Assembly (NCBI GenBank): GCA_030390025.1
Contig: CM059431.1
Location: forward strand, 135,658,001 to 135,722,000
Direction: 5' to 3'
Origin: Squalus acanthias
Lineage: Eukaryota
DNA: 64,000 bases
Shown here piece after piece: positions 1 through 57,541 of the stretch. A program made the translations under genes and the position numbers. The notes under the pieces were generated by a model. The model was not told where the DNA came from. It saw nothing but the letters and a program-made list of their open reading frames with translations, and did no database searches. The first letter of the stretch is position 1. Every line of letters begins with the position of its first letter.

Positions 1-46
1 GAGTGCACAGTGCGTACTCTCCCGTATTCGGCCGAATTTCTGGGCC
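1..46 (-). mobile_element. Terminus of a hairpin-rich Harbinger-type MITE (same family as 29928-30693), cut by the window edge
   Basis: Reverse complement GGCCCAGAAATTCGGCCGAATACGGGAGAGTACGCACTGTGCACTC aligns with the start of 29928 (GGGCCAAAAATTCGGCACTTGCCGGGTGAGTACGCGCTGTGTACTC). Confidence 0.7.
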
Positions 47-4555: not shown

Positions 4556-4935
4556 TAAATAGTCTCTTTGTTGAGTAAATAGACTGCTGTAATGCCCTGT
4601 TTCAATAGACTCTGCTGATTAAATAGACTGCTGTACTGCCCTGTTTCAATAGACTCTGCTGATTAAATAGACTGCTGTAGTGCCCTGTTTCAATAGACTC
4701 TGCTGATTAAATAGACTGCTGTAGTGCCCTGTTTCAATAGACTCTGTTTGCTGAGTAAATAGACTGCAGTAGTGCCCTGTTTCAATAGACTCTGTTTGCT
4801 GAGTAAATAGACTGCTGTAATGCCCTGTTTCAATAGACTCTGCTGATTAAATAGACTGCTGTAGTGCCCTGTTTCAATAGACTCTGTTTGCTGATTAAAT
4901 AGGCATTGTCTGCTGTAAAATAGACTGCTGTCAGT
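4556..4935. repeat. Minisatellite, 44/48-bp unit, about 7-8 copies
   Basis: Unit CAATAGACTCTG(TTTG)CTGA(T/G)TAAATAGACTGCTGTA(G/A/C)TGCCCTGTTT; unit starts at 4603, 4647, 4691, 4735, 4783, 4831, 4875. Confidence 0.95.
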
Positions 4936-6125
4936 CCTGCTGTAAGTCCCACACCACCTCCAACTCATTGGCTGACACAGTGGTGTCAATAGACACTTTG
5001 GCCCGACAGACTTATGTAAAACAAATATTCATAACGCATAGAAAAAGGAATAATAAAGTAGGAGTTGACCAAATTAAATTTGTTTGTTGGTGCTAAGTGC
5101 TGTGCTTAAATCAATTTTAAATGGAACGTAATGATAGATGATAAATTATGTCTTATAATGAAATTTCAGTCTGGAATTAGAGGGAAATTCTCTCCACAGA
5201 ACAGGTTCATTTCAGCGGTTGCTACACCTCCAGAGAAGGAACAAAAATACAAATTTTGAAGTAAAAATAAATGAACAATAAATGAGTGCTTTTACCCACT
5301 TCTAAATAGGAATAGAATAACTTGTTGCATTCTGTGTCACCGCTAACTGCACATATGTTTTAGGTTAATATGAATTGATAACAGAGTACCAAATTAACTG
5401 GTTTAAAAGGACACAATCTTCATGAGAAAGAATTTGACAAACTGTTCCTTTTTTGTGGAAGGGAACAAGCCAGGAGAGTGGTGCATCATTTTAATCATGA
5501 TGATGCTATCTACAAGGGATGTTCTCTTGGTTTAAATAAGATTTAGCCCTGATTGAGCTAGGTTCTACTGGTGATGCAGACCCTCACTAGGGATACTTGC
5601 AGATGGCAAAATTGAGCATGCAGATGTGTGTGTATTTCACCGCGAAAATGTAACAGTGACCAGCACGAGCATATTTAGATCTTCAAAAATTATTCAAATG
5701 AGTCCCATACTGGATTCAGTGGCTTTCTTGACGGCTCCTCACCAATAGCACTACAGTTTGTGGATGGCCTGGAGCAGGCTTCTTAAAACGGAATATCACT
5801 TTTTATAGATCGGTGTAAAGTTAGAATTTTTATAATCTTTTACCAGCATTTTGTTTAGGATATCAATTTTTGTTGCTATTTAGGTCTGATTTTTTTTTCC
5901 ATTGCAAGACTTTCATTTCCAAGATCATTACTTACAACAGCCTTTCTTCAGCAGTTATTTCACTTGCAGCAACCAAAGTGGATTAGATTGGAATTCCTCT
6001 GCAGCTTCTAATATTCCCTAATTTGGAAGAGGAACAGCAATTCTTGAGGGGTCATGAAAGTCAGGTCCATCTATGTCTCATGTGGTCATATACACACCTT
6101 CCCTGGCCCCGGGATTCATACTTAC

Positions 6126-6825: not shown

Positions 6826-6955
6826 TTCACCTGATGAAGGAGCAGCGCTCCGAAAGCTTGTGATTTCAAATAAAACTGCTGGATTATAACCTGGTGTTGT
6901 GCGACTTCTCACTTTTGTCCACCCCAGTCCAACACCGGCATCTCCGCATCATGGC
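6826..6955 (+). mobile_element. Penelope-like element terminal fragment (second subfamily)
   Basis: Hammerhead motif followed by AAATAAA..GGATTATAACCTGGTGTTGTG..CCCCAGTCCAACACCGGCATCTCC, the typical shark Penelope pseudo-LTR end. Confidence 0.75.
6827..6863 (+). ncRNA. Minimal type I hammerhead ribozyme
   Basis: TCAC-CTGATGA-A-GGAGC-AGC-GCTCC-GAAA-GC-TT-GTGA: stem I TCAC/GTGA, intact CUGAUGA and GAAA core, 5-bp stem II, palindromic AAGCTT stem III. Confidence 0.8.
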
Positions 6956-7299
6956 CACCCGATTGTAGCATCCAACTGTTTCTGAAATGATTTCAGGGTT
7001 TTTGCTTCCACTGCTCTGGAAGTTTATTTCATATATTGATCACTGTTTGTGTGAAGAAGAATTTCCTGATATCTGTCCAAAAATTACCCTTCTCTAGTTT
7101 GAACCTGTATCCCCTAATTCTACTCCAGCAGTTTAATTTAAAGTAATATTCTGAGTTAACTTTCTATACCCTTAACAATCTTAGACACTTTTATAAGATC
7201 ACTGATCAAAAGCCTCCTTTACAGACTGAAAAGACCAATTCTCTCCATTCCTTCCTCATAACATAGACCTCTTACACCATGACATCTGTACATTTGGGT

Positions 7300-9293: not shown

Positions 9294-9521
9294 AACATGG
9301 TTTTGTGCAAGGGAAATCATGTTTAACCAATTTATTGGAGTTCTTTGAGGAAGTAACATGTGCTGTGGATAAAGGGGAACCGGTGGATGTACTGTACTTG
9401 GATTTCCAGAAGGCGTTTGATAAGGTGCCACATCAAAGGTTATTGCAGAAAATAAAAGCTCATGGTGTAGGGGGTAACATATTGGTATGGATAGAATATT
9501 GGCTAGTGAACAGGAAACAGA

Positions 9522-10416
9522 GGGGTAAAAATTCACTTGGTTGCGCCACCCGTTAGCGCCTTAAGAGGGCGCTAATGGGGCGCAAAGCCGCTAACGCCCG
9601 GGCGCAGCGATGTTTGCGCCGCTCGAGAACTTAACTTGAGATTGTGCGGCGGCGCTAAAACTTACCGCTGCGACCACCTGCGCGCGCAGATTGTGACGTC
9701 ATTCCATGGTGCAACGCCCTTGGGGCGTCCCGTAGCGGAAATTGAGTGGCGCCCCCTGCCTTACCGCCTGGCGCATCCAACGACCAGAAGACTGGAATGC
9801 TATCAATCGCTGTGGGGCTGGGGGGGGGGCGCTATTTAAAGGGGGCCTCTTCCTGTCTTTTATTGTTGGTGGCATTTTTGAACTACGCATTCTGAGAGAG
9901 AGAGGGAGAGACTTCTGGAGAGATTCAACGTTGTGTGAAGGAGTTTTGGGTACTGAGCAGCACTTTGCAGGTTCATTTTGATTTGCCATTCCTTGTATCG
10001 ATTTAGCAGAGACCGTGGGAGCTGCACTCTGAGCTCTTTGCCTGGTGCTCTCCATTGTTCTTTCCAGCACATTTGATGTGCAAGTCTCTCCAGGCCGAGA
10101 TTCAAGGCAGCAATGAACAGGATGTGGATGGAAAGCAAGATTAACCATCCCCTTTAAGAACTGGCCCGTGCCATTGTGTGTGTGTTCCATTGCTGACTGA
10201 CATTACATGAGCTTCGCCAGCGCTCCGAGTTAGCGCCTCACTGCTCGGCCTTTGCGCCTTAAGAGAGGTGTGCAGCGCCTGCTTTAGCGCTCCACTCACC
10301 TCCCGGGGCGGTAAAAGTGAAGTTTCCCGTCAGTGCCGATAATTAGCGCCAGGCGCTAATATTTGCGTCCGGACGATATTTGCGCCCCAAATGGGGCGCG
10401 ACCTAATTTCTACCCC
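9522..10416 (+). mobile_element. Non-autonomous Harbinger-type MITE, family 1 (895 bp)
   Basis: TIRs GGGGTAAAAATT / AATTTCTACCCC, TSD AGA, interrupts the CR1 codons RKQ|RVGING; homologous to 47544-48444 and 56210-57084. Confidence 0.9.
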
Positions 10417-28998: not shown

Positions 28999-29927
28999 AG
29001 GCAGTAGAAAAAAGTGGCGCAGATATCAGTAAGACAGAAATAGAATTCATGTGGATAGAGATAAAAGATAATAAAGGATCAATCACACTAATAAGGGTAG
29101 TCTACAAACCACCTAATAGTGGAAGTGAGGTGGAGGAAGAAATATGCAAACAAATTAGGGAAATGAGTAAAAAACATAGAATAATAATCATGGGGGATTT
29201 CAACTACCCTAAAATTAATTGGTCAGATGAGGTAGGTAAAGGGGATAAGGGAATAGTGTTCCTATAATGTTTGCAGGACTCCTTTCTAACCCAATATGTA
29301 AGAAGCCCAAAAAGGGAGGATTCGCTACTGGATATAGTAATGGAGAATAAACCAGAGCAGATAAGAGAATTAAAAGATGGGGAACATCTAGGCAGTAGCA
29401 CCATAATATAATACGCTTTAAGATAATAATTGAGAAGGACATAAGTATGATGAAGACCAGGGTAATAGACAAGGGAGAAAAGCCAATTTTGATGGGCTGA
29501 GAATAGAACTTGGGAAAATAAAATGGACAGCAATATTTGCAAACAATGATGTAGAACATTTAAAACATTTAAAATATATTCCATTAAAAACAAGAACAAG
29601 CTAAACACTAATGAGATACCATGGATGAATAAAGACATAAGGGAAAAATTGAGGGTAAGGAAAGAGGTATACACTAAATACATGGACAGAAGGGGAGAGC
29701 ATGATAAGGGAGAATATGAAGAAATTAGGAGAGAAGTCAATAAAACAATTAGGAAGGTAAAGAGGAACTATGAAATTAAATTATCAAGGAACATAAAACA
29801 AAATAGTAAAATATTCTACAGGCACATAAATAAAAAAGCGAAAGTCAGGATGGGAATAGAGCCACTAAGGGATGTTCAGGATAAAATTACAGGTAGCAAC
29901 AGCGAAATGGCAGAAATATTAAATAAT

Positions 29928-30693
29928 GGGCCAAAAATTCGGCACTTGCCGGGTGAGTACGCGCTGTGTACTCACCCGTAAGGCCTCCTGAAGTGCTGGT
30001 TTCCTGCATGCACTGCGCATGCGCGGGAAACCGGAACTTCCGGTCTCGTGAAGGGAGGGGTTGAGAGGTGAACCGCGTGCGCGGGAGAGGCTGCGCGCAC
30101 GCAGCGAACTTATGTTTTTTTTCAGGTTTCTCTGGGAAGGTAAGTATGGAAGAAGCTGCGCTTTTAAAAAGGAGGCGCAAGACCCGTTTTTAACAAGGTA
30201 AGTGGTTAATTAATTACAATTAAAAAAAAATTTCAACAGGTTTATCTTTTTTAGATACTTTAAAGAAAGGTAAGTTTATTTTTAGCACTGTTAAAAAGTA
30301 TTTTAATTTTTTCAAAAATGTTTATTTTTGTTTAAAGCAGTTAATTTATTTAACTTATAGTTATTTTAAAAATGTGATGGTTTTTTTTTAAATTTATTTG
30401 AAGTTTAGGTGTTGTTTTGGGGCCGATTTCAATTCATAGATTTGACAGGTCTTCCTGTCAAATCTATGAATGAAAGATGGTCTGCTGCCATTGGCTCTCC
30501 ATGGCCCACGTGATCCCAGGGGACGCATCGCACTAACTACGCCCCTGGGATACACAAGCACTGCGCACCGGCAGCTGCAGGAGGCCCAGGAGCTGAAGTC
30601 CCCGTGGGCCCAGAGGTCAACGGCAGGCGCGGTAGGTAGGTGCGCGCGGGATCCTTGCACTCGCGGGAAGCCAGGGAGCCTAATTTCTGGGCC
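29928..30693 (+). mobile_element. Hairpin-rich Harbinger-type MITE, family 2 (766 bp)
   Basis: TIRs GGGCCAAAAATTCGG / CCTAATTTCTGGGCC; interrupts the CR1 codons EILNN|.FASLF; several internal hairpins; homologous to 47076-49472. Confidence 0.85.
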
Positions 30694-32042
30694 ATAGACT
30701 TTGCTTCATTATTTACCAGGGTGACATATCAGGTGGACATGACCTCAGAAGATGAGATTAGAAATTATATAACAGCATTTAACATAAAAAGAGGAGAAAT
30801 ATTGAATAAACTAATCAAACTCAAAGAGGATAAAACCCCTGGTCCAGACGGATTACATCTGTGCATTTTAAAACAATCTAGAAAAGAGACAGCAGAGGCA
30901 CTATTACATATATTTAATCATTCATTCGAGGACTGGCGGACAGCTAACATAATACCTATATTTAAGAAGGGAGATAAAACATGTCCATGGAAGTTTAGAC
31001 CAGTCAGCTTAACATCGGTGAAAGGAAAAATAATGGAATCTCTACAGAGGAAAGAATAGAAGAACATCTAGAAACCAAAAATATAATAATGAATAGTAAG
31101 CATGGATTTCAAAATGGAAACTCTTTCTTGACCAACCTCATTGAATTATTTGAAGAGGTAACAGAGAGAGTGGACAAGGCTAATGCAGTAGAAGTAATGT
31201 ATCTAGATTTCCAAAGGGCTTCAATAAGGTACCACATAATAGACTAGTGCAAAAGGTCAGAGAATGTAGAGTCAGGGGAAAAGTAGCAGAATGGATAGCC
31301 AGCTGGCTTCAAGACAGAAAGCAGAGAGTAGGGGTTAAGGGTAGCTATTCACAGTGGCAGAAGGTGGAAAGTGGTGTCCCACAATGATCAGTGCTGGGAC
31401 CACTGTTGTTCACAATTTATATTAATGATTTAGACTTTTGCAATCAAGAACACAATTTTTAAATTTGCTGATGACACCAAATTGGGGGGGATAGTCAATA
31501 CTGAGGAGGACTGCAACAAATTATAGGAAGACATTAATAAACTTGCAGAATGGCATATAATTGGCAAATGAAATTCAACACAGATACATGTGAGCTATTA
31601 CACTTTGGTAAGAAAAATAAGGAGCTCACATATTACTTGGAAAATAAGAATCTAAATGGGGTAGAGGAGCAAAGGGATCTCAGAGTACAAATACACAAAT
31701 CACTAAAAGTAGTGACGCAGGTTAATAAGGCCATTAAAAAAGTAAACCAAGCACTGGGGTTTATTTCTAGAGGGATAGAATTGAAAAGTAGAGAAGTTAT
31801 GCTGAACTTGTATCAAACCTTGGTTAGACCACACTTGGAATACTGTGTACAATTTTGGTTGCCATATTATAAAAAGGATATAGAGACACTGGAGAGGGTG
31901 CAGAGAAGATTTACAAGGATGATACCAGAAATGCGAGGTTATACCAATCAGAAAAGGATGAACAGGATGAAAAGGGAATGCTGAGGGGTGACCTAATAGA
32001 GGTCTTTAAAATTATGAAAGGTTTTGATAGAGTAAACACAGA

Positions 32043-46950: not shown

Positions 46951-47543
46951 GGCACATCAACAATTAATTTGCACAGTGGTTATCTTAATCTGGACAGAAT
47001 TATAAGGGGTGGCCTTGGAGTGTCTGTTCAGGTATATTTGAAAGTATTGCAGCATTTCTTTTCACAGATGATATTGCCCTGGAAATTGCAGTCAGAGGCT
47101 TTCCGCCCGCGTACGCCTCTGAACTGCAAGAAAAGTAAGTACTTACCTTTTGTCTCCGGAGCTTCGGACTCTTGCGGTCCTGGGCCTGCAGGCATATGCC
47201 TGCTTAAAGGCCCATGGATCCCAGGGGCGCATGCGGTTCACAAGCGTCCCTGGGATCACGTGGGCCAGGCCAACCAATGACACCTGTTATGCTTATGTGT
47301 ACGGAATTTCCATAAGCATAATAGAAATCATCTAATAAATACAATTTCACAACACTGAAATAAAAATAAATGATCACAGGTTCAAAATTAATTAAAATAC
47401 CACTTAAGTAAACAATTAAAATAAAAATGTAATTTTTTGAAAAATGAATTTAAATATTTTTAACCGGGGCAAAATTGAACTAAACTAATTTTAAATTTTA
47501 AATGAATGCTTAAATCATTTTAAAAAATTTATTTAAACACTTA

Positions 47544-48444
47544 GGGGGAAAAATTCAGTTGGTTGCGCCTCCCGTTAGCGCCTTAAGAGGGCGCTAATGG
47601 GGCGCAAATCATCTAGCGCCCAGGCACGGCGAAGTTTGCGCCGCTCGCGAAATTAACTAGAAATTTTGCAGCGGCGCTAAACACTACCGCCACGATCTCC
47701 TGCGCCCGCAGATCGTGACATCAGTCGAGTGCGCAACGCCCCGGTATCGCCCCGGAGCGGATATTGAGTGGCGCCCCCTGCCTTACCGCCTGACGCTAGC
47801 AACGACAGGTTGAGGGGAGCGTTCTGCAGTCATGAAGGGAAAGGGGGAGCGCTATTTAAAGGTGACCGCTTCCTGCCTTTTATTGTTGGTGCCATTTTTG
47901 AACTACGCATTCTGAGAGAGAGAGAGAGAGAGAGAGAGACTTCTGGAGAGATTCAACGTTGTGTGAAGGAGTTTTGGGTACTGAGCAGCACTTTGCAGGT
48001 TCATTTTGATTTGCCCTTCCTTGTATCGATTTAGAAGAGACTGTGGGGGCTGCACTCTGAGCTCTTTGCCTGGTACTCTCCATTGTTCTTTCCAGCAGAT
48101 TTGATGTGCAGGTCTCTCCAGGCCGAGATTCAAGGCTGCAATGAGCAGGATGTGGATGGAAAGCAAGATTAACCATCCCCTTAAAGAACTGGCCCATGCC
48201 ATTGTGTGTGTGTTCCATTGCTGACTGACATTACATGAGCTTCGCCAGCGCTCTGAGGTAGCGCCTCGCTCCTCGGCCTTTGCACCTTAAGACAGGTGTG
48301 AAGCGCCTGATTTAGCGCTCCAATCACCTCCAGGGGCGATAAAAGTCAAGTTTGCAGTCGGTGGTGATAATTAGCGCCAGGCGCTAATCTTTGCGCCCGG
48401 CCGATAATTGCGCCCCAAATGGGGCGATACTGAATTTCTCCCCC
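47544..48444 (+). mobile_element. Harbinger-type MITE, family 1 (901 bp)
   Basis: TIRs GGGGGAAAAATTCAG / CTGAATTTCTCCCCC; TSD TTA. Confidence 0.93.
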
Positions 48445-48709
48445 TTACACTGGTAAAAGAAGGCCTTACACCTGCTTTTACCAGGTGTAAGGGTTTTGTG
48501 GGTATTTGCTGAGCAGGAGTTGGGCAAATAGCGCAACTCTGCACCAGCAAAGTGAATTTGTAGCGGATGGGTACGATCTGTCAAGGCAAACCTTAACATA
48601 GCGCAAGTTCCGGGTTTTCGCGCATGCGCATCACATGCAGAAACCCAGAACTTGTGGGGCAATCATGACAGCGTACGCTGTGCATACGCTGTCATAGGCC
48701 CTGTAAAAT

Positions 48710-49461
48710 AGAAACATAGGAACATAGGAACAGGAGTAGGCCATTGAGCCCCTAGAGCTTATTCCGTCATTCAATGAAATCACGGTTGATCTGCAACCTA
48801 ACTCCATGTACCCGCCTTTGGCCCATATCCCTTAATACCTTTGGTTAACAAAAATCTATCAATCTCAGATTTAAAATTAACAATTGATCTAGCATCAATT
48901 CCCATTTGTGGAAGAGAGTTCCAAACTTCTATCACCCTTTGTGTGTAGAAGTGTTTCTTAATTTCACTCCAGAAAGGTCTGGCTCTAATTTTTAGACTAT
49001 GCCCCCTAGTCCTAGACTCCCCAACCAGCAGAAATAGTTTCTCTCTGTCTACCCTATCTGTTCCCCTTAATACCTTGAAAACTTCGATCAGATCACCCCT
49101 TAACCTTCTAAATTCTAGGGAATACAACCCTAATTTGTGTAATCTCTCCTCGTAACTCATAACTGGATCCTTGGAGTCCAGGTATCATTCTGGTAAACCT
49201 ACGCTGCACTCCCTCCAAGGCCTTCCTAAGGTGTGGTGCCCAGAACTGCTCACAGTACTCCAGGTGTGGTCTAACCAGGGCTTTGTATAGCTGCAGCATA
49301 ACTTCTACCCCCTTGTATTCTAGTCCTCTAGATATAAAGGCCAGCATTCCATTAGCCTTTTTGATTATTTTCTCTACCTGTTCATGACATTTTAATTATC
49401 TATGTACCTGGACCCCCAAGTCTCTTTGGACCTCCACTGTTTTTAGCTTTTCACCATGTAG
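48710..49461 (-). mobile_element. 5'-truncated CR1 LINE
   Basis: ORFs 49108-49347 and 48798-49160; 3' UTR; inserted about 7 bp from the end of the host MITE. Confidence 0.92.
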
Positions 49462-49558
49462 AAATCCAGGCCATTATGTTGTTGACAGACACACATGGAG
49501 ATCTAGATCATTATACTCATGCCTTGAACAATAGATTAAATAGTAGGATAGGCTGATT

Positions 49559-55315: not shown

Positions 55316-56209
55316 CTAGTGGAGGGAGAGAAAAATAGGCATTGCAGAGTGTAAAACTCACTATGATAAGATCAGAATAGTTGAACTTTAGATTTATTGC
55401 CAGGGGGGATGGGGAGGGGGTGCGGAAATTGGACTTTAGGCCTTTGCTGCCTGCAGTAAATACACTGCACACTGTTGGGAATTCTGTGGTCCTTGTGCCT
55501 AATTTTTAAACTTTTAAGTAGTATTACTTTAGTCAGATATGGTATGTTGCCTGCCTGGTTCCAGGGTCAAGGATGTCACTGAACGGCTGCAGGGCATTCT
55601 GAGGGGGGAGGGTGAACAGCCAGAGGTCGTGGTCCATATCGGTACCAACCACATAGTTAGGAAGAGGGATGAGGACGTGCAGGCAGAGTTTAGGGAGCTA
55701 GGAGTCAGATTAAAAAGCAGGACCTCAAAGGTAGTAATCCCCGGATTACTACCAGTGCCATGTACTAGTGAGTACAGAAATAGGAAGATAGAGCAGATGA
55801 ATGTGTGGCTGGAGTGATGGTGTAGGAGGGAGGGCTTTAGATTCCTGAGGAATTGGAACCGTTTCTAGGGGAGGTGGGACCTCTACAAGCCAGACGGGTT
55901 GCACCTCAACGGGAATGGAACCAATATCCTCACGGGAGGGTTTGCTAGTGCTGTTGGGGAGGGTTTAAACTAGCTTGGCAGGGGGATGGGAGCCTAAGTA
56001 TAGAGTCAATAGGGAGGGAAGAAAAACTGGAATTGGAAAACAAAAATGTAGAAAGTAAATTGGAACGACAGAGGAATCAAGGGCTAGATAGCAGTCAACA
56101 AGGAGGTTTGCCTATACTAAATGGTATATACTTCGATACAAGGAGTATAGCGAACATAGCAGATGAGCTGAGGGCACAGGTAGATACTTGGGACTATGAT
56201 AGAGTCATA

Positions 56210-57084
56210 GGGGGAAAAATTCAGTATCGCCCTGTTTCGGGCGCAATTATCGGCCGGGCGCAAAGATTAGCGCCTGGCGCTAATTATCGCCTCCGACTGC
56301 AAACTTGACTTTTATCGCCCCTGGAGGTGATTGGAGCGCTAAATCAGGCGCTACACATCTGTCTTAAGGCGCAAAGGCCGAGGAGCGAGGCGCTAACTCA
56401 GAGCGCTGGCGAAGCTCATGTGATGTCAGTCAGCAATGGAACACAGACACAATGGCGCCGGCCAGTTCTTAAAGGGGAGGGTTGATCTTACATTCCATCC
56501 ACATCCTGCTCATTGCAGCCTTGAATCTCGGTCTGGAGAGACCTGTACATCAAATCTGCTGGAAAGAACAATGGAGAGCCCCAGGGAAAGAGCTCAGAGT
56601 CTCTTCTAAATCAATACAAGGAAGGGCAAATCAAAATGAACCTGCAAAGTGCTGCCCAGTACCCAAAACTCCTTCACACAGCGTTGAATCTCTCCAGAAG
56701 TCTCTCTCTCTCTCAGAATGCGTGGTTCAAAAATGTCGGCAACAAAAAAAGTCAGGAAGCGGTCGCCTTTAAATAGCGCTCCCCCAGTCCCTTCCTGACT
56801 GCAAAACGCTCCCCTCAACCTGTCGTTGCTAGCGGCAGGCGGTAAGGCAGGGGGCGCCACTCAATATCCGCTCCGGGGTGCTACCGGGGCGTTGCGCACT
56901 CGACTGACGTCATGATCTGCCGGCGCAGGAGATCGTGGCGGTACTGTTTAGCGCCGCCGCAAAATGTCTAGTTAATTTCGCGAGCGGCGCAAACATCGCC
57001 GCGCCCGGGCGCTAGTTGCTTTGCACCCCATTAGCGCCCTCTTAAGGCGCTAACGGGAGGTGCAACCAACTGAATTTTTCCCCC
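56210..57084 (-). mobile_element. Harbinger-type MITE, family 1 (875 bp), inverted relative to the other two copies
   Basis: TIRs GGGGGAAAAATTCAG / CTGAATTTTTCCCCC; TSD ATA. Confidence 0.93.
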
Positions 57085-57541
57085 ATAGAGTTATACAGCA
57101 CAGAAAGAGGCCCTTCGGCCCACCGTGTCCGCACCGGCCATCAAGCCCTGTCTATTATAATCCCATTTTCCAGCACTTGGTCCATAGCCTTGTATGCTAT
57201 GGCATTTCAAGTGCGCATCTAAATGCTTCTTGAATGTTGTGAGGGTTCCATCCTCTACCACCCTTTCAGGCAGTGAGTTCCAGATTCCAACCACCCTCTG
57301 GGTGAAAAAGTTTTTCCTCAAATCCCCTCTAAACCTCCTGCCCCTTACCTTGAAACTATGCCCCCTGGTTATTGACCCCACTACTAAGGGCAAAAGTTCC
57401 TTTCTATCTACCCTATCTATGCCCCTCATAATTTTGTACACCTCAACCAGGTTATAGAGTCATAGAGTCATAGAGTTATACAGCACAGAAAGAGGCCTTT
57501 CGGCCCATCGTGTCCGCGCCGGCCATCAAGCCCTGTCTATT

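What the first reader, a model, noticed from the sequence alone, without database searches (positions are those of the whole stretch)
29928..30693. MITE family that keeps a chain of hairpins and a pseudoknot through compensatory sequence change
Seen: this 766-bp element (A) and the inverted copy at 47076-49472 (B, ~740 bp once two nested insertions are removed) keep the same order of stems while the stem sequences differ. H1 is CGGGTGAGTAC/GTACTCACCCG in A (29950-29978) and ATGACAGCGTA/TACGCTGTCAT in B. H2 is GAAGT..GGTTTCC/GGAAACC..ACTTC in A and CAAGTT..GGGTTT/AAACCC..AACTTG in B, both around TGCGCATGCGC. H3 is a hairpin whose loop can also pair downstream: TTACACCTG/CAGGTGTAA plus CTGGTAAAAG/CTTTTACCAG in B, and TGCGCTTTT/GGAGGCGCA plus TTAAAAA/TTTTTAA in A. 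H4 is a perfect 18-bp stem in A (30432-30471) and an unrelated 11-bp stem in B (47287-47321). H5 is ATCCCAGGG/CCCTGGGAT in both. A third end sits at 1-46. Established: MITEs need only TIRs and subterminal binding sites. Inference: structure kept without sequence suggests a functional structured RNA or ssDNA cargo carried by Harbinger-type ends. Palindrome-templated repair is the main alternative.
Basis: partly seen in the sequence, partly recalled or inferred. Interest (0 to 1): 0.72.

Follow-up and report, generated by a model that had tools for sequence, protein, structure and literature searches.

The report
Harbinger MITE with co-changing DNA palindromes
This is a very abundant, gene-less cut-and-paste jumping element whose internal mirror-image stretches change in matched pairs between its lineages, likely because symmetric DNA sites help the element get moved, not because it carries a folded RNA.

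Summary
The stems are real and covary more than chance allows (21.8 same-branch double changes, null 5.3). A functional RNA cargo is not supported.

A, B and the end at 1-46 are three subfamilies of one PIF/Harbinger-type MITE family with over 20,000 copies. I found its autonomous partners: 4.5 kb, DDE transposase plus Myb/SANT gene, same TIRs. H1 and H2 also sit, and covary, in their left ends.

Mismatches show no G-U strand bias (16 vs 19). Resting copies decay neutrally (813 broken pairs, 31 compensated, 28.1 expected). Variants shared by several copies are about halved in stems, and are low in the promoter-like motifs too. The H3 'pseudoknot' is one long hairpin, decayed in A. Lineages swap segments with autonomous elements, and some hairpins are lost.

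Best reading: symmetric DNA modules under weak selection for mobility, with occasional template switching. Side finding: 28 of 62 young copies have non-identical 3-bp flanks, which fits carry-over of a donor overhang. The scan reported this family before on other DNA.

The parts
29928..30693 (+). MITE copy A, young subfamily, inserted in a CR1-like LINE fragment
   Evidence: 40 of 40 scored hits near full length, 96-100% identical; the flanks translate as RT-LINE-like protein (CR1 label recalled); joints that skip the element
29925..29927 (+). Left 3-bp flank AAT; equals the pre-insertion target
   Evidence: 2 of 2 empty paralogous sites read AAT; joints agree
30694..30696 (+). Right 3-bp flank ATA; differs from the target, possibly donor-derived
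29928..29939 (+). Left TIR, shared with autonomous 4.5-kb elements
29950..29978 (.). H1: subterminal inverted pair with invariant GTAC core; also in autonomous left ends in a second, fully compensated state; loop inverted in F and several E copies
29990..30040 (.). H2: inverted pair around a conserved loop; also in autonomous left ends
30014..30024 (.). GCGCATGCGC motif in the H2 loop (NRF1-like; label recalled); among the invariant columns
   Evidence: (16 of 18 consensuses)
30075..30102 (.). H2d: hairpin of A-type lineages only, in the segment that matches the autonomous left end
30139..30275 (+). Three GGTAAGT splice-donor-like sites (30139, 30197, 30269); the first aligns with a donor-like site upstream of the autonomous transposase ORF
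   Evidence: use as splice sites in the MITE not shown
30157..30179 (.). H3 remnant, decayed in A; no pseudoknot support
30432..30471 (.). H4: 18-bp perfect stem, extendable to about 30 bp; inner arm drifts at background rate but stays paired
30490..30512 (-). CCAAT box plus CACGTG E-box at fixed spacing (NF-Y/USF-like; label recalled); no shared variants
30513..30551 (.). H5: inverted pair, the most conserved helix
30619..30693 (+). Right end with right TIR, homologous to the autonomous right end
47076..47542 (-). MITE copy B, 3' part (H4 47287-47321, H5 47218-47256, right TIR)
47543..48444 (.). Nested TAA-flanked Harbinger-type MITE of another family
48445..48709 (-). MITE copy B, 5' part (H1 48665-48695, H2 48604-48654, H3 48450-48490)
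48710..49461 (-). CR1-like LINE fragment inserted into the left TIR of B
49462..49472 (-). First 11 bp of the left TIR of B; flanks AAT/AAT
1..46 (-). 5' end of MITE copy C (whole copy 764 bp, G000:C7:135657283-135658046)

Best explanation
The element is a non-autonomous PIF/Harbinger-type MITE that shares its ends with autonomous transposase+Myb elements of the same genome, and its covarying palindromes are likely symmetric double-stranded DNA modules kept by weak selection among the copies that go on to transpose. SHOWN: shared TIRs and ends; covariation between lineages; neutral decay in resting copies; fewer shared variants in stems and in promoter-like motifs; no wobble strand bias; segment swaps with autonomous elements. 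INFERRED: (1) H1, H2, H5 and the conserved loop motifs act as binding sites for the Myb/transposase complex or for host promoter factors that keep the element accessible. (2) Copies with intact modules are mobilised more often. (3) Double changes arise by second-site mutation and now and then by arm-to-arm template switching during gap repair, the process that would also explain the mosaics and the inverted H1 loop.
For: Autonomous partners: 4.5-kb elements with the same TIRs, DDE_Tnp_4 (E 2e-43) and Myb_DNA-bind_5 (E 4e-14). MITE positions 1-248 and 692-766 match their ends. H1/H2 covary in them too (43 double-change cells vs 15.8 shuffled, 0/500; slid registers 2-11). Covariation on the tree of 18 lineages: 21.8 same-branch doubles vs 5.3, maximum 11 in 500. 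Internal mismatches in lineages: 16 G-T, 19 A-C, 32 other, p = 0.74. In 126 copies: 263 G-T vs 294 A-C, 813 one-sided breaks, 31 compensated vs 28.1 expected. Shared vs singleton variants: stems 25/206, GC-rich background 125/532, odds ratio 0.52, p = 0.004; NRF1-like loop 3/29; CCAAT/E-box 0/19; none of the 25 compensated. H1, H2, H5 change at 0.5-1.0 per site vs 1.7-2.0 background. Mosaic: lineage J is 91-92% identical to autonomous L139/L144 but 42% to sister D3 in columns 131-250, and 79-90% to D3 in five of the other six segments (68% at the right end). Internal sequence alters mobility of the Harbinger MITE mPing (PMC9921582, passages). [quoted passage not shown]
Against: No binding or transposition assay was run. 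The palindromes have at least six unrelated sequences, too many for one protein. The inner arm of H4 changes at background rate (1.72 per site) yet stays paired, and the long H3 hairpin has three compensations in lineage N: this looks like structure without sequence. 17 shared variants break pairs, and mismatched states (C H1, A H2) amplified widely, so the constraint is weak. Non-CpG compensations in copies are 12 vs 6.3 expected, a mild excess. The H4/CCAAT/H5 module (about positions 450-660) was not found as part of an autonomous element in 20 transposase loci or 30 Myb loci. 12 of 18 lineage consensuses rest on 2-7 copies, and mosaicism blurs the tree.
Confidence: 0.55

Rival explanations
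1. No selection: arm-to-arm template switching during transposition-linked gap repair perfects and extends any palindrome in the master lineages, so covariation is a mutational by-product.
For: Segment swaps show ectopic templating in master lineages. The H1 loop occurs as its exact reverse complement in 4 F/E copies, with 8 more F/E copies 1-2 changes away; loop inversion is a template-switch footprint (PMC8794818, section 7). Lineage-specific stem extensions (C H1, J H4 24 bp). H4 inner arm at neutral rate. Template switching in gap repair is proposed for MITE birth (PMC3814204, passages).
Against: Resting copies show no repair: 813 breaks vs 31 compensated, 28.1 expected; 4 of 382 mutation clusters fit a reverse-complement copy. 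Unbiased repair predicts compensated shared variants, but 0 of 25 are; about 17 pairs were expected in the cruder test. It does not explain the constraint on loop motifs.
Confidence: 0.2
2. Selection acts on folded DNA (hairpins or cruciforms extruded at the element) rather than on protein-read sequence, for example to exclude nucleosomes or bend the element for end pairing.
For: H4 (about 30 bp) and the long H3 hairpin drift in sequence yet stay paired. No strand bias, as expected for a cruciform. Shared variants are low in H4 and H3 too (6/40 and 1/17 vs 125/532, small numbers).
Against: H2 and H5 have loops of 19-25 nt, which disfavours extrusion (established knowledge). H3, H2b, H2c and H6 are lost in the young A-type lineages. 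No structural data.
Confidence: 0.17
3. The element carries a functional structured RNA: a transcript from the retained left promoter whose stems, H4 above all, are selected as RNA.
For: Strong folding and real covariation. Promoter-like motifs and GGTAAGT sites lie on the + strand. H4 has pre-miRNA-like length and folds better on + in all 18 lineages. Autonomous relatives appear spliced in runs guessed to be RNA (CT..AC joint 6903-7237 in 4 of 4 runs).
Against: No Rfam match. G-T vs A-C 16:19 overall and 4:3 in H4; non-wobble mismatches are the most common class. Both strands fold about equally far above shuffles. The pseudoknot fails. Copies are unconstrained once inserted. The element moves as DNA (TIRs, 3-bp flanks), so there is no evident route for RNA-level selection. 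H1/H2 likely lie upstream of the transposase start site (inference).
Confidence: 0.08

Closest known systems
Tourist-like MITEs and other non-autonomous PIF/Harbinger elements, e.g. rice mPing (PMC2836001 passages; PMC9921582 passages; PMC4561436 abstract and sections 7-8)
   Same: Short TIRs, 3-bp AT-rich flanks, no ORF, high copy number, two-gene autonomous partner (DDE + Myb/SANT); internal sequence matters for mobility.
   Different: Target is AWT/ANT, not TWA; about 760 bp; row of covarying palindromes; end swaps with the partner; many copies have non-identical flanks.
Pangu group of the PHIS superfamily (PMC4482050, passages and section 6)
   Same: ANT target duplication; TIR starts with GG; two ORFs.
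   Different: Pangu's second ORF has no known motif and no vertebrate host is listed; here the second ORF has a Myb/SANT domain. No transposase tree against Pangu was made.
Template-switch maintenance of hairpins (PMC8794818, abstract, start of the text and section 7)
   Same: Compensated stems, loop inversion and stem extension can arise at DNA level.
   Different: Here no repair is detectable in resting copies; compensation is confined to lineages that transpose.
piggyBac seamless excision with donor-derived TTAA overhangs (PMC7351741, passages)
   Same: Staggered cut through the duplicated target; the element can carry donor flank as an overhang.
   Different: Different superfamily and a 4-nt overhang; carry-over here is inferred from flank mismatches only.

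Membership tests
PIF/Harbinger (PHIS) MITE | Short TIRs, no coding capacity, high copy number, uniform length | tested here: met
   20,825 exact core hits, control 0; 162 distinct full copies of 640-800 bp; no ORF search was run on the MITE itself, lack of coding is read from its length and
PIF/Harbinger (PHIS) MITE | Autonomous partner with the same TIRs, a DDE_Tnp_4 transposase and a Myb/SANT protein | tested here: met
PIF/Harbinger (PHIS) MITE | 3-bp target site duplication | tested here: met
   55 of 91 young copies have identical 3-bp flanks; empty paralogs match both flanks in 14 of 17 concordant cases
PIF/Harbinger in the strict sense | TWA target | tested here: not met
   flanks are mainly AAT/ATT
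Pangu | ANT target | tested here: met
   against PMC4482050 section 6
Pangu | Second ORF without a known motif | tested here: not met
   Myb_DNA-bind_5, E 3.8e-14
Pangu | Transposase falls in the Pangu clade | not tested
   no reference Pangu transposases fetched
Structured non-coding RNA | Significant covariation | tested here: met
Structured non-coding RNA | G-U tolerated over A-C on one strand | tested here: not met
   16:19; 263:294
Structured non-coding RNA | Match to a known family | tested here: not met
Structured non-coding RNA | Discrete stranded transcript | not testable with these tools
   only contigs of runs guessed to be RNA
H-type pseudoknot or ribozyme | Two compatible, conserved, covarying stems | tested here: not met
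   stems overlap, only one covaries, region decayed in A-type lineages

The most novel reading that the evidence does not exclude
MITE master lineages are selected for sequence-independent DNA hairpins or cruciforms (H4, H3) as a folded cis-element of transposition, renew their ends from the autonomous partner, and carry the donor's 3-nt overhang into the new site, leaving a genomic record of Harbinger cleavage chemistry in tens of thousands of copies.
Probability: 0.17. Interest if true: 0.62.

Novelty: new variant of a known kind. Interest (0 to 1): 0.33.

Why it matters
It is a clean case in which significant covariation does not point to an RNA, which is a useful warning for covariation screens. 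It offers a natural experiment on which internal sequences make a MITE successful, with thousands of copies and apparently intact autonomous partners that could be assayed. The flank mismatches could test how Harbinger-type transposases cut and join, which was inferred for mPing only from excision sites (PMC4561436).

Tried and rejected
- Rfam: 7 weak matches on A, all far below their gathering scores; 0 on 5 loci of other subfamilies.
- Expression: no RNA holder is on record. Contigs of four runs laid on A show no common start or end and no GT..AG joint among the 14 listed. I do not use this as evidence either way.
- Pseudoknot: rejected. One of the four stretches folded (L170) was misplaced and is not used.
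- General palindrome repair in resting copies: rejected.
- defined stems from each subfamily's own consensus, which inflates the depletion; (fixed helix columns) replaces it.
- One search had H2 two columns out of register; one search is the corrected count.
- An autonomous source for positions 450-660, or for D/B-type ends, was not found in 20 transposase loci, 30 Myb loci or 36 H2b loci. The sample is small against 63,886 transposase candidates, so absence is not shown.
- One repeated motif (G.GTA[AC]G) explaining all stems: strong only in B (12 vs 0.6 expected), 1-5 elsewhere; insufficient.
- GCGTACGC in B (48671-48678, 47109-47116) resembles, from recall only, the Myb site of zebrafish Harbinger3_DR. 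That paper is not held, and the 15 listed of 67 hits of a text search were unrelated by title.
- Papers describing this family or such covariation in a MITE: none seen. Dfam and Repbase could not be searched, so the family may already be catalogued there.

Full report
1. Observation. B is interrupted by a CR1-like LINE fragment inside its left TIR and by a 902-bp TAA-flanked MITE; the remainder is about 740 bp. The end at 1-46 belongs to a complete 764-bp copy, C, 81% identical to A. Perfect stems of 8 bp or more number 4 in A (0.6 in shuffles) and 4-11 in each of 14 subfamily consensuses (0.2-0.5 in shuffles). The unrelated nested MITE is also palindrome-rich (6 stems of 8 bp vs 0.4), so this is not unique to the family.

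2. What it is. The window lies in a 3.7-Gb genome; 'shark-like' is my inference from its LINE content. A 30-nt core pattern has 20,825 exact hits and its reversed control none; a second hairpin pattern has about 7,900. From the best BLAST hits and from pattern hits in the first 27 Mb of one contig I extracted 162 distinct full-length copies and grouped 153 of them into 18 lineages. In an earlier set of 14 consensuses, pairwise identity ran from 56 to 93%. Flanks are 3 bp, mainly AAT or ATT, the ANT type given for Pangu elements (PMC4482050, passages and section 6).

A search for DDE_Tnp_4 gave 63,886 candidates, 150 scored. Of 20 loci fetched at 10 kb, 12 carry end sequence of this family; several are complete elements of about 4.5 kb. 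They encode a transposase in an open frame of 384-391 codons and, on the other strand, a Myb/SANT protein. MITE positions 1-248 and 692-766 match their ends. A minus-strand intron of the Myb gene is skipped in 4 of 4 runs guessed to be RNA, so autonomous relatives appear to be expressed in related samples. The source of the H4/CCAAT/H5 module was not found.

3. Covariation is real. Four helices (46 pairs) are shared by all 18 lineages; 17 pairs show more than one Watson-Crick type, and 760 of 820 ungapped cells pair. On the tree, both sides of a pair change on the same branch 21.8 times (16 from pair to pair), against 5.3 for re-paired columns, maximum 11 in 500. On 20 natural sequences that include autonomous ends, H1+H2 have 43 double-change cells vs 15.8 shuffled and 2-11 in slid registers. 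Caveats: helices were chosen for being paired, 12 of 18 consensuses rest on 2-7 copies, and lineages are mosaic.

4. It does not look like RNA. Distinct internal mismatches in the lineages are 16 G-T, 19 A-C and 32 others; a selected RNA strand should favour one wobble class (established knowledge). Both strands fold far above shuffles. Rfam has nothing. The H3 'pseudoknot' consists of overlapping helices. The long one folds in B and in all 10 D/K/B/M/N lineages, and only it has compensations. In A-type lineages the region has decayed. The invariant columns are GTAC in H1, GCATGC and GCGCATGCGC in the H2 loop, and CCCAC.TGATCCCAG. These look like double-stranded promoter or binding motifs (NRF1-like, CCAAT plus E-box; names recalled). 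H1 and H2 lie at the very left end of the autonomous element, about 700 bp before the transposase ORF. Direct expression evidence for the MITE is unavailable.

5. Where the pairing is maintained. In 126 copies of 8 subfamilies, pairs break on one side 813 times and are compensated 31 times, with 28.1 expected from independent changes. Non-CpG cases are 12 vs 6.3, a mild excess. Private substitution rates in stems and outside are alike. So neither selection nor templated repair acts visibly on resting copies; this contradicts the scan's earlier notes where they imply that copies mend themselves. Variants shared by several copies, which arose in copies that transposed again, are depleted in stems relative to singletons (25/206 vs 125/532, odds ratio 0.52, p = 0.004) and also in the loop motifs (3/29, 0/19). 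Of the 25, 17 break a pair, 6 restore one, 2 are neutral and none is a compensated double. That fits weak purifying selection among master copies better than unbiased repair. Two classes of helix emerge: H1, H2 and H5 are constrained in sequence (0.5-1.0 changes per site), while the inner arm of H4 changes at background rate (1.72) yet stays paired. Template-driven change also occurs in masters. Lineage J took columns 131-250 from an autonomous element (91-92% vs 42% to D3), replacing two hairpins. H is 76-84% like A in its 5' part and 96-98% in its 3' part. The H1 loop is inverted in F and several E copies, probably one event.

6. Mechanism. The MITE keeps the ends and promoter-like modules of its partner and is moved in trans (inferred from shared ends). 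Copies with intact symmetric modules likely transpose more often, so stems persist only along master lineages. Second-site mutation and occasional template switching in gap repair would supply the double changes. Internal sequence affects mPing mobility (PMC9921582, passages); the Myb partner binds terminal or subterminal DNA (PMC13668399, PMC9392472, passages citing Sinzelle 2008, which I could not read); template switching can create and mend stems (PMC8794818, abstract, start of the text and section 7) and is proposed in MITE birth (PMC3814204, passages). I put 0.55 on this, 0.20 on neutral template switching alone, 0.17 on selection for folded DNA and 0.08 on an RNA cargo.

7. Side finding. 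In subfamilies A and C (about 4% pairwise divergence), 28 of 62 copies with clean ends have non-identical 3-bp flanks, 14 of them AAT against ATT. Point mutation should give under about 10% (my estimate). For 7 discordant copies with empty paralogous sites, one flank matches the target in 6. Three of these are clear (L001 = A itself, L007, L021); the others could be point mutations or rest on few sites. mPing is proposed to be cut in a staggered way through its TSD (PMC4561436, section 7), and piggyBac carries donor overhangs (PMC7351741, passages). Carry-over of a donor overhang is my inference.

8. Verdict. A real, well-supported DNA-level pattern in a new variant of a known kind of element; not a structured RNA on present evidence. 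The scan found the family many times before on other DNA (unreviewed notes, not used as evidence; one of them gave the lead to PMC4561436). No supplementary files were read; Dfam and Repbase were not available. Interest 0.33.

Noticed in passing
window 29925-29927 and 30694-30696; subfamilies A and C genome-wide: 28 of 62 young copies have non-identical 3-bp flanks (14 AAT vs ATT); where empty sites exist, one flank matches the target and the other is often foreign, as if a donor overhang were carried along.
   Followed up: partly
window 47543-48444, 9521-10416, 56209-57092; L146, L148-L153, L156: A second Harbinger-type MITE family (G-rich TIR, TAA flanks in the nested copy, about 900 bp), with 4-kb transposase elements that share its TIR; also rich in 8-bp palindromes.
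   Followed up: partly
L139:3422-7947, L137:3463-7975: Autonomous elements with open transposase frames and convergent transposase and Myb genes; 63,886 transposase and 58,164 Myb candidates in the genome; Myb intron skipped in runs guessed to be RNA. The L139 Myb exon looks frameshifted.
   Followed up: partly
cons. alignment columns 131-250 (window about 30040-30150): A-type lineages replaced two D-type hairpins with a segment from the autonomous left end, which brought a splice-donor-like site.
   Followed up: yes
D-type lineages, e.g. L170: The motif TTGACAG occurs as an inverted pair twice (H2b and inner H4), whereas K/B/M have a different inner H4; the H4 core may have been overwritten from H2b.
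   Followed up: no
L106-L109; L022/L027 and three more hits at G000:C10:95.11-95.16 Mb; L074/L076: Near-identical copies with identical flanks, i.e. tandem or segmental duplications rather than independent insertions; they slightly inflate shared-variant counts.
   Followed up: no
window 18868, 40017, 43773, 32792: Further TIR-like ends of other GG-starting elements in the window.
   Followed up: no
window 4569-4946: Tandem repeat with 44/48-bp period.
   Followed up: no
Parts of element A are held by runs of six coded organisms, five with a word share of 0.28-0.43, so the family is probably shared with related species.
   Followed up: no
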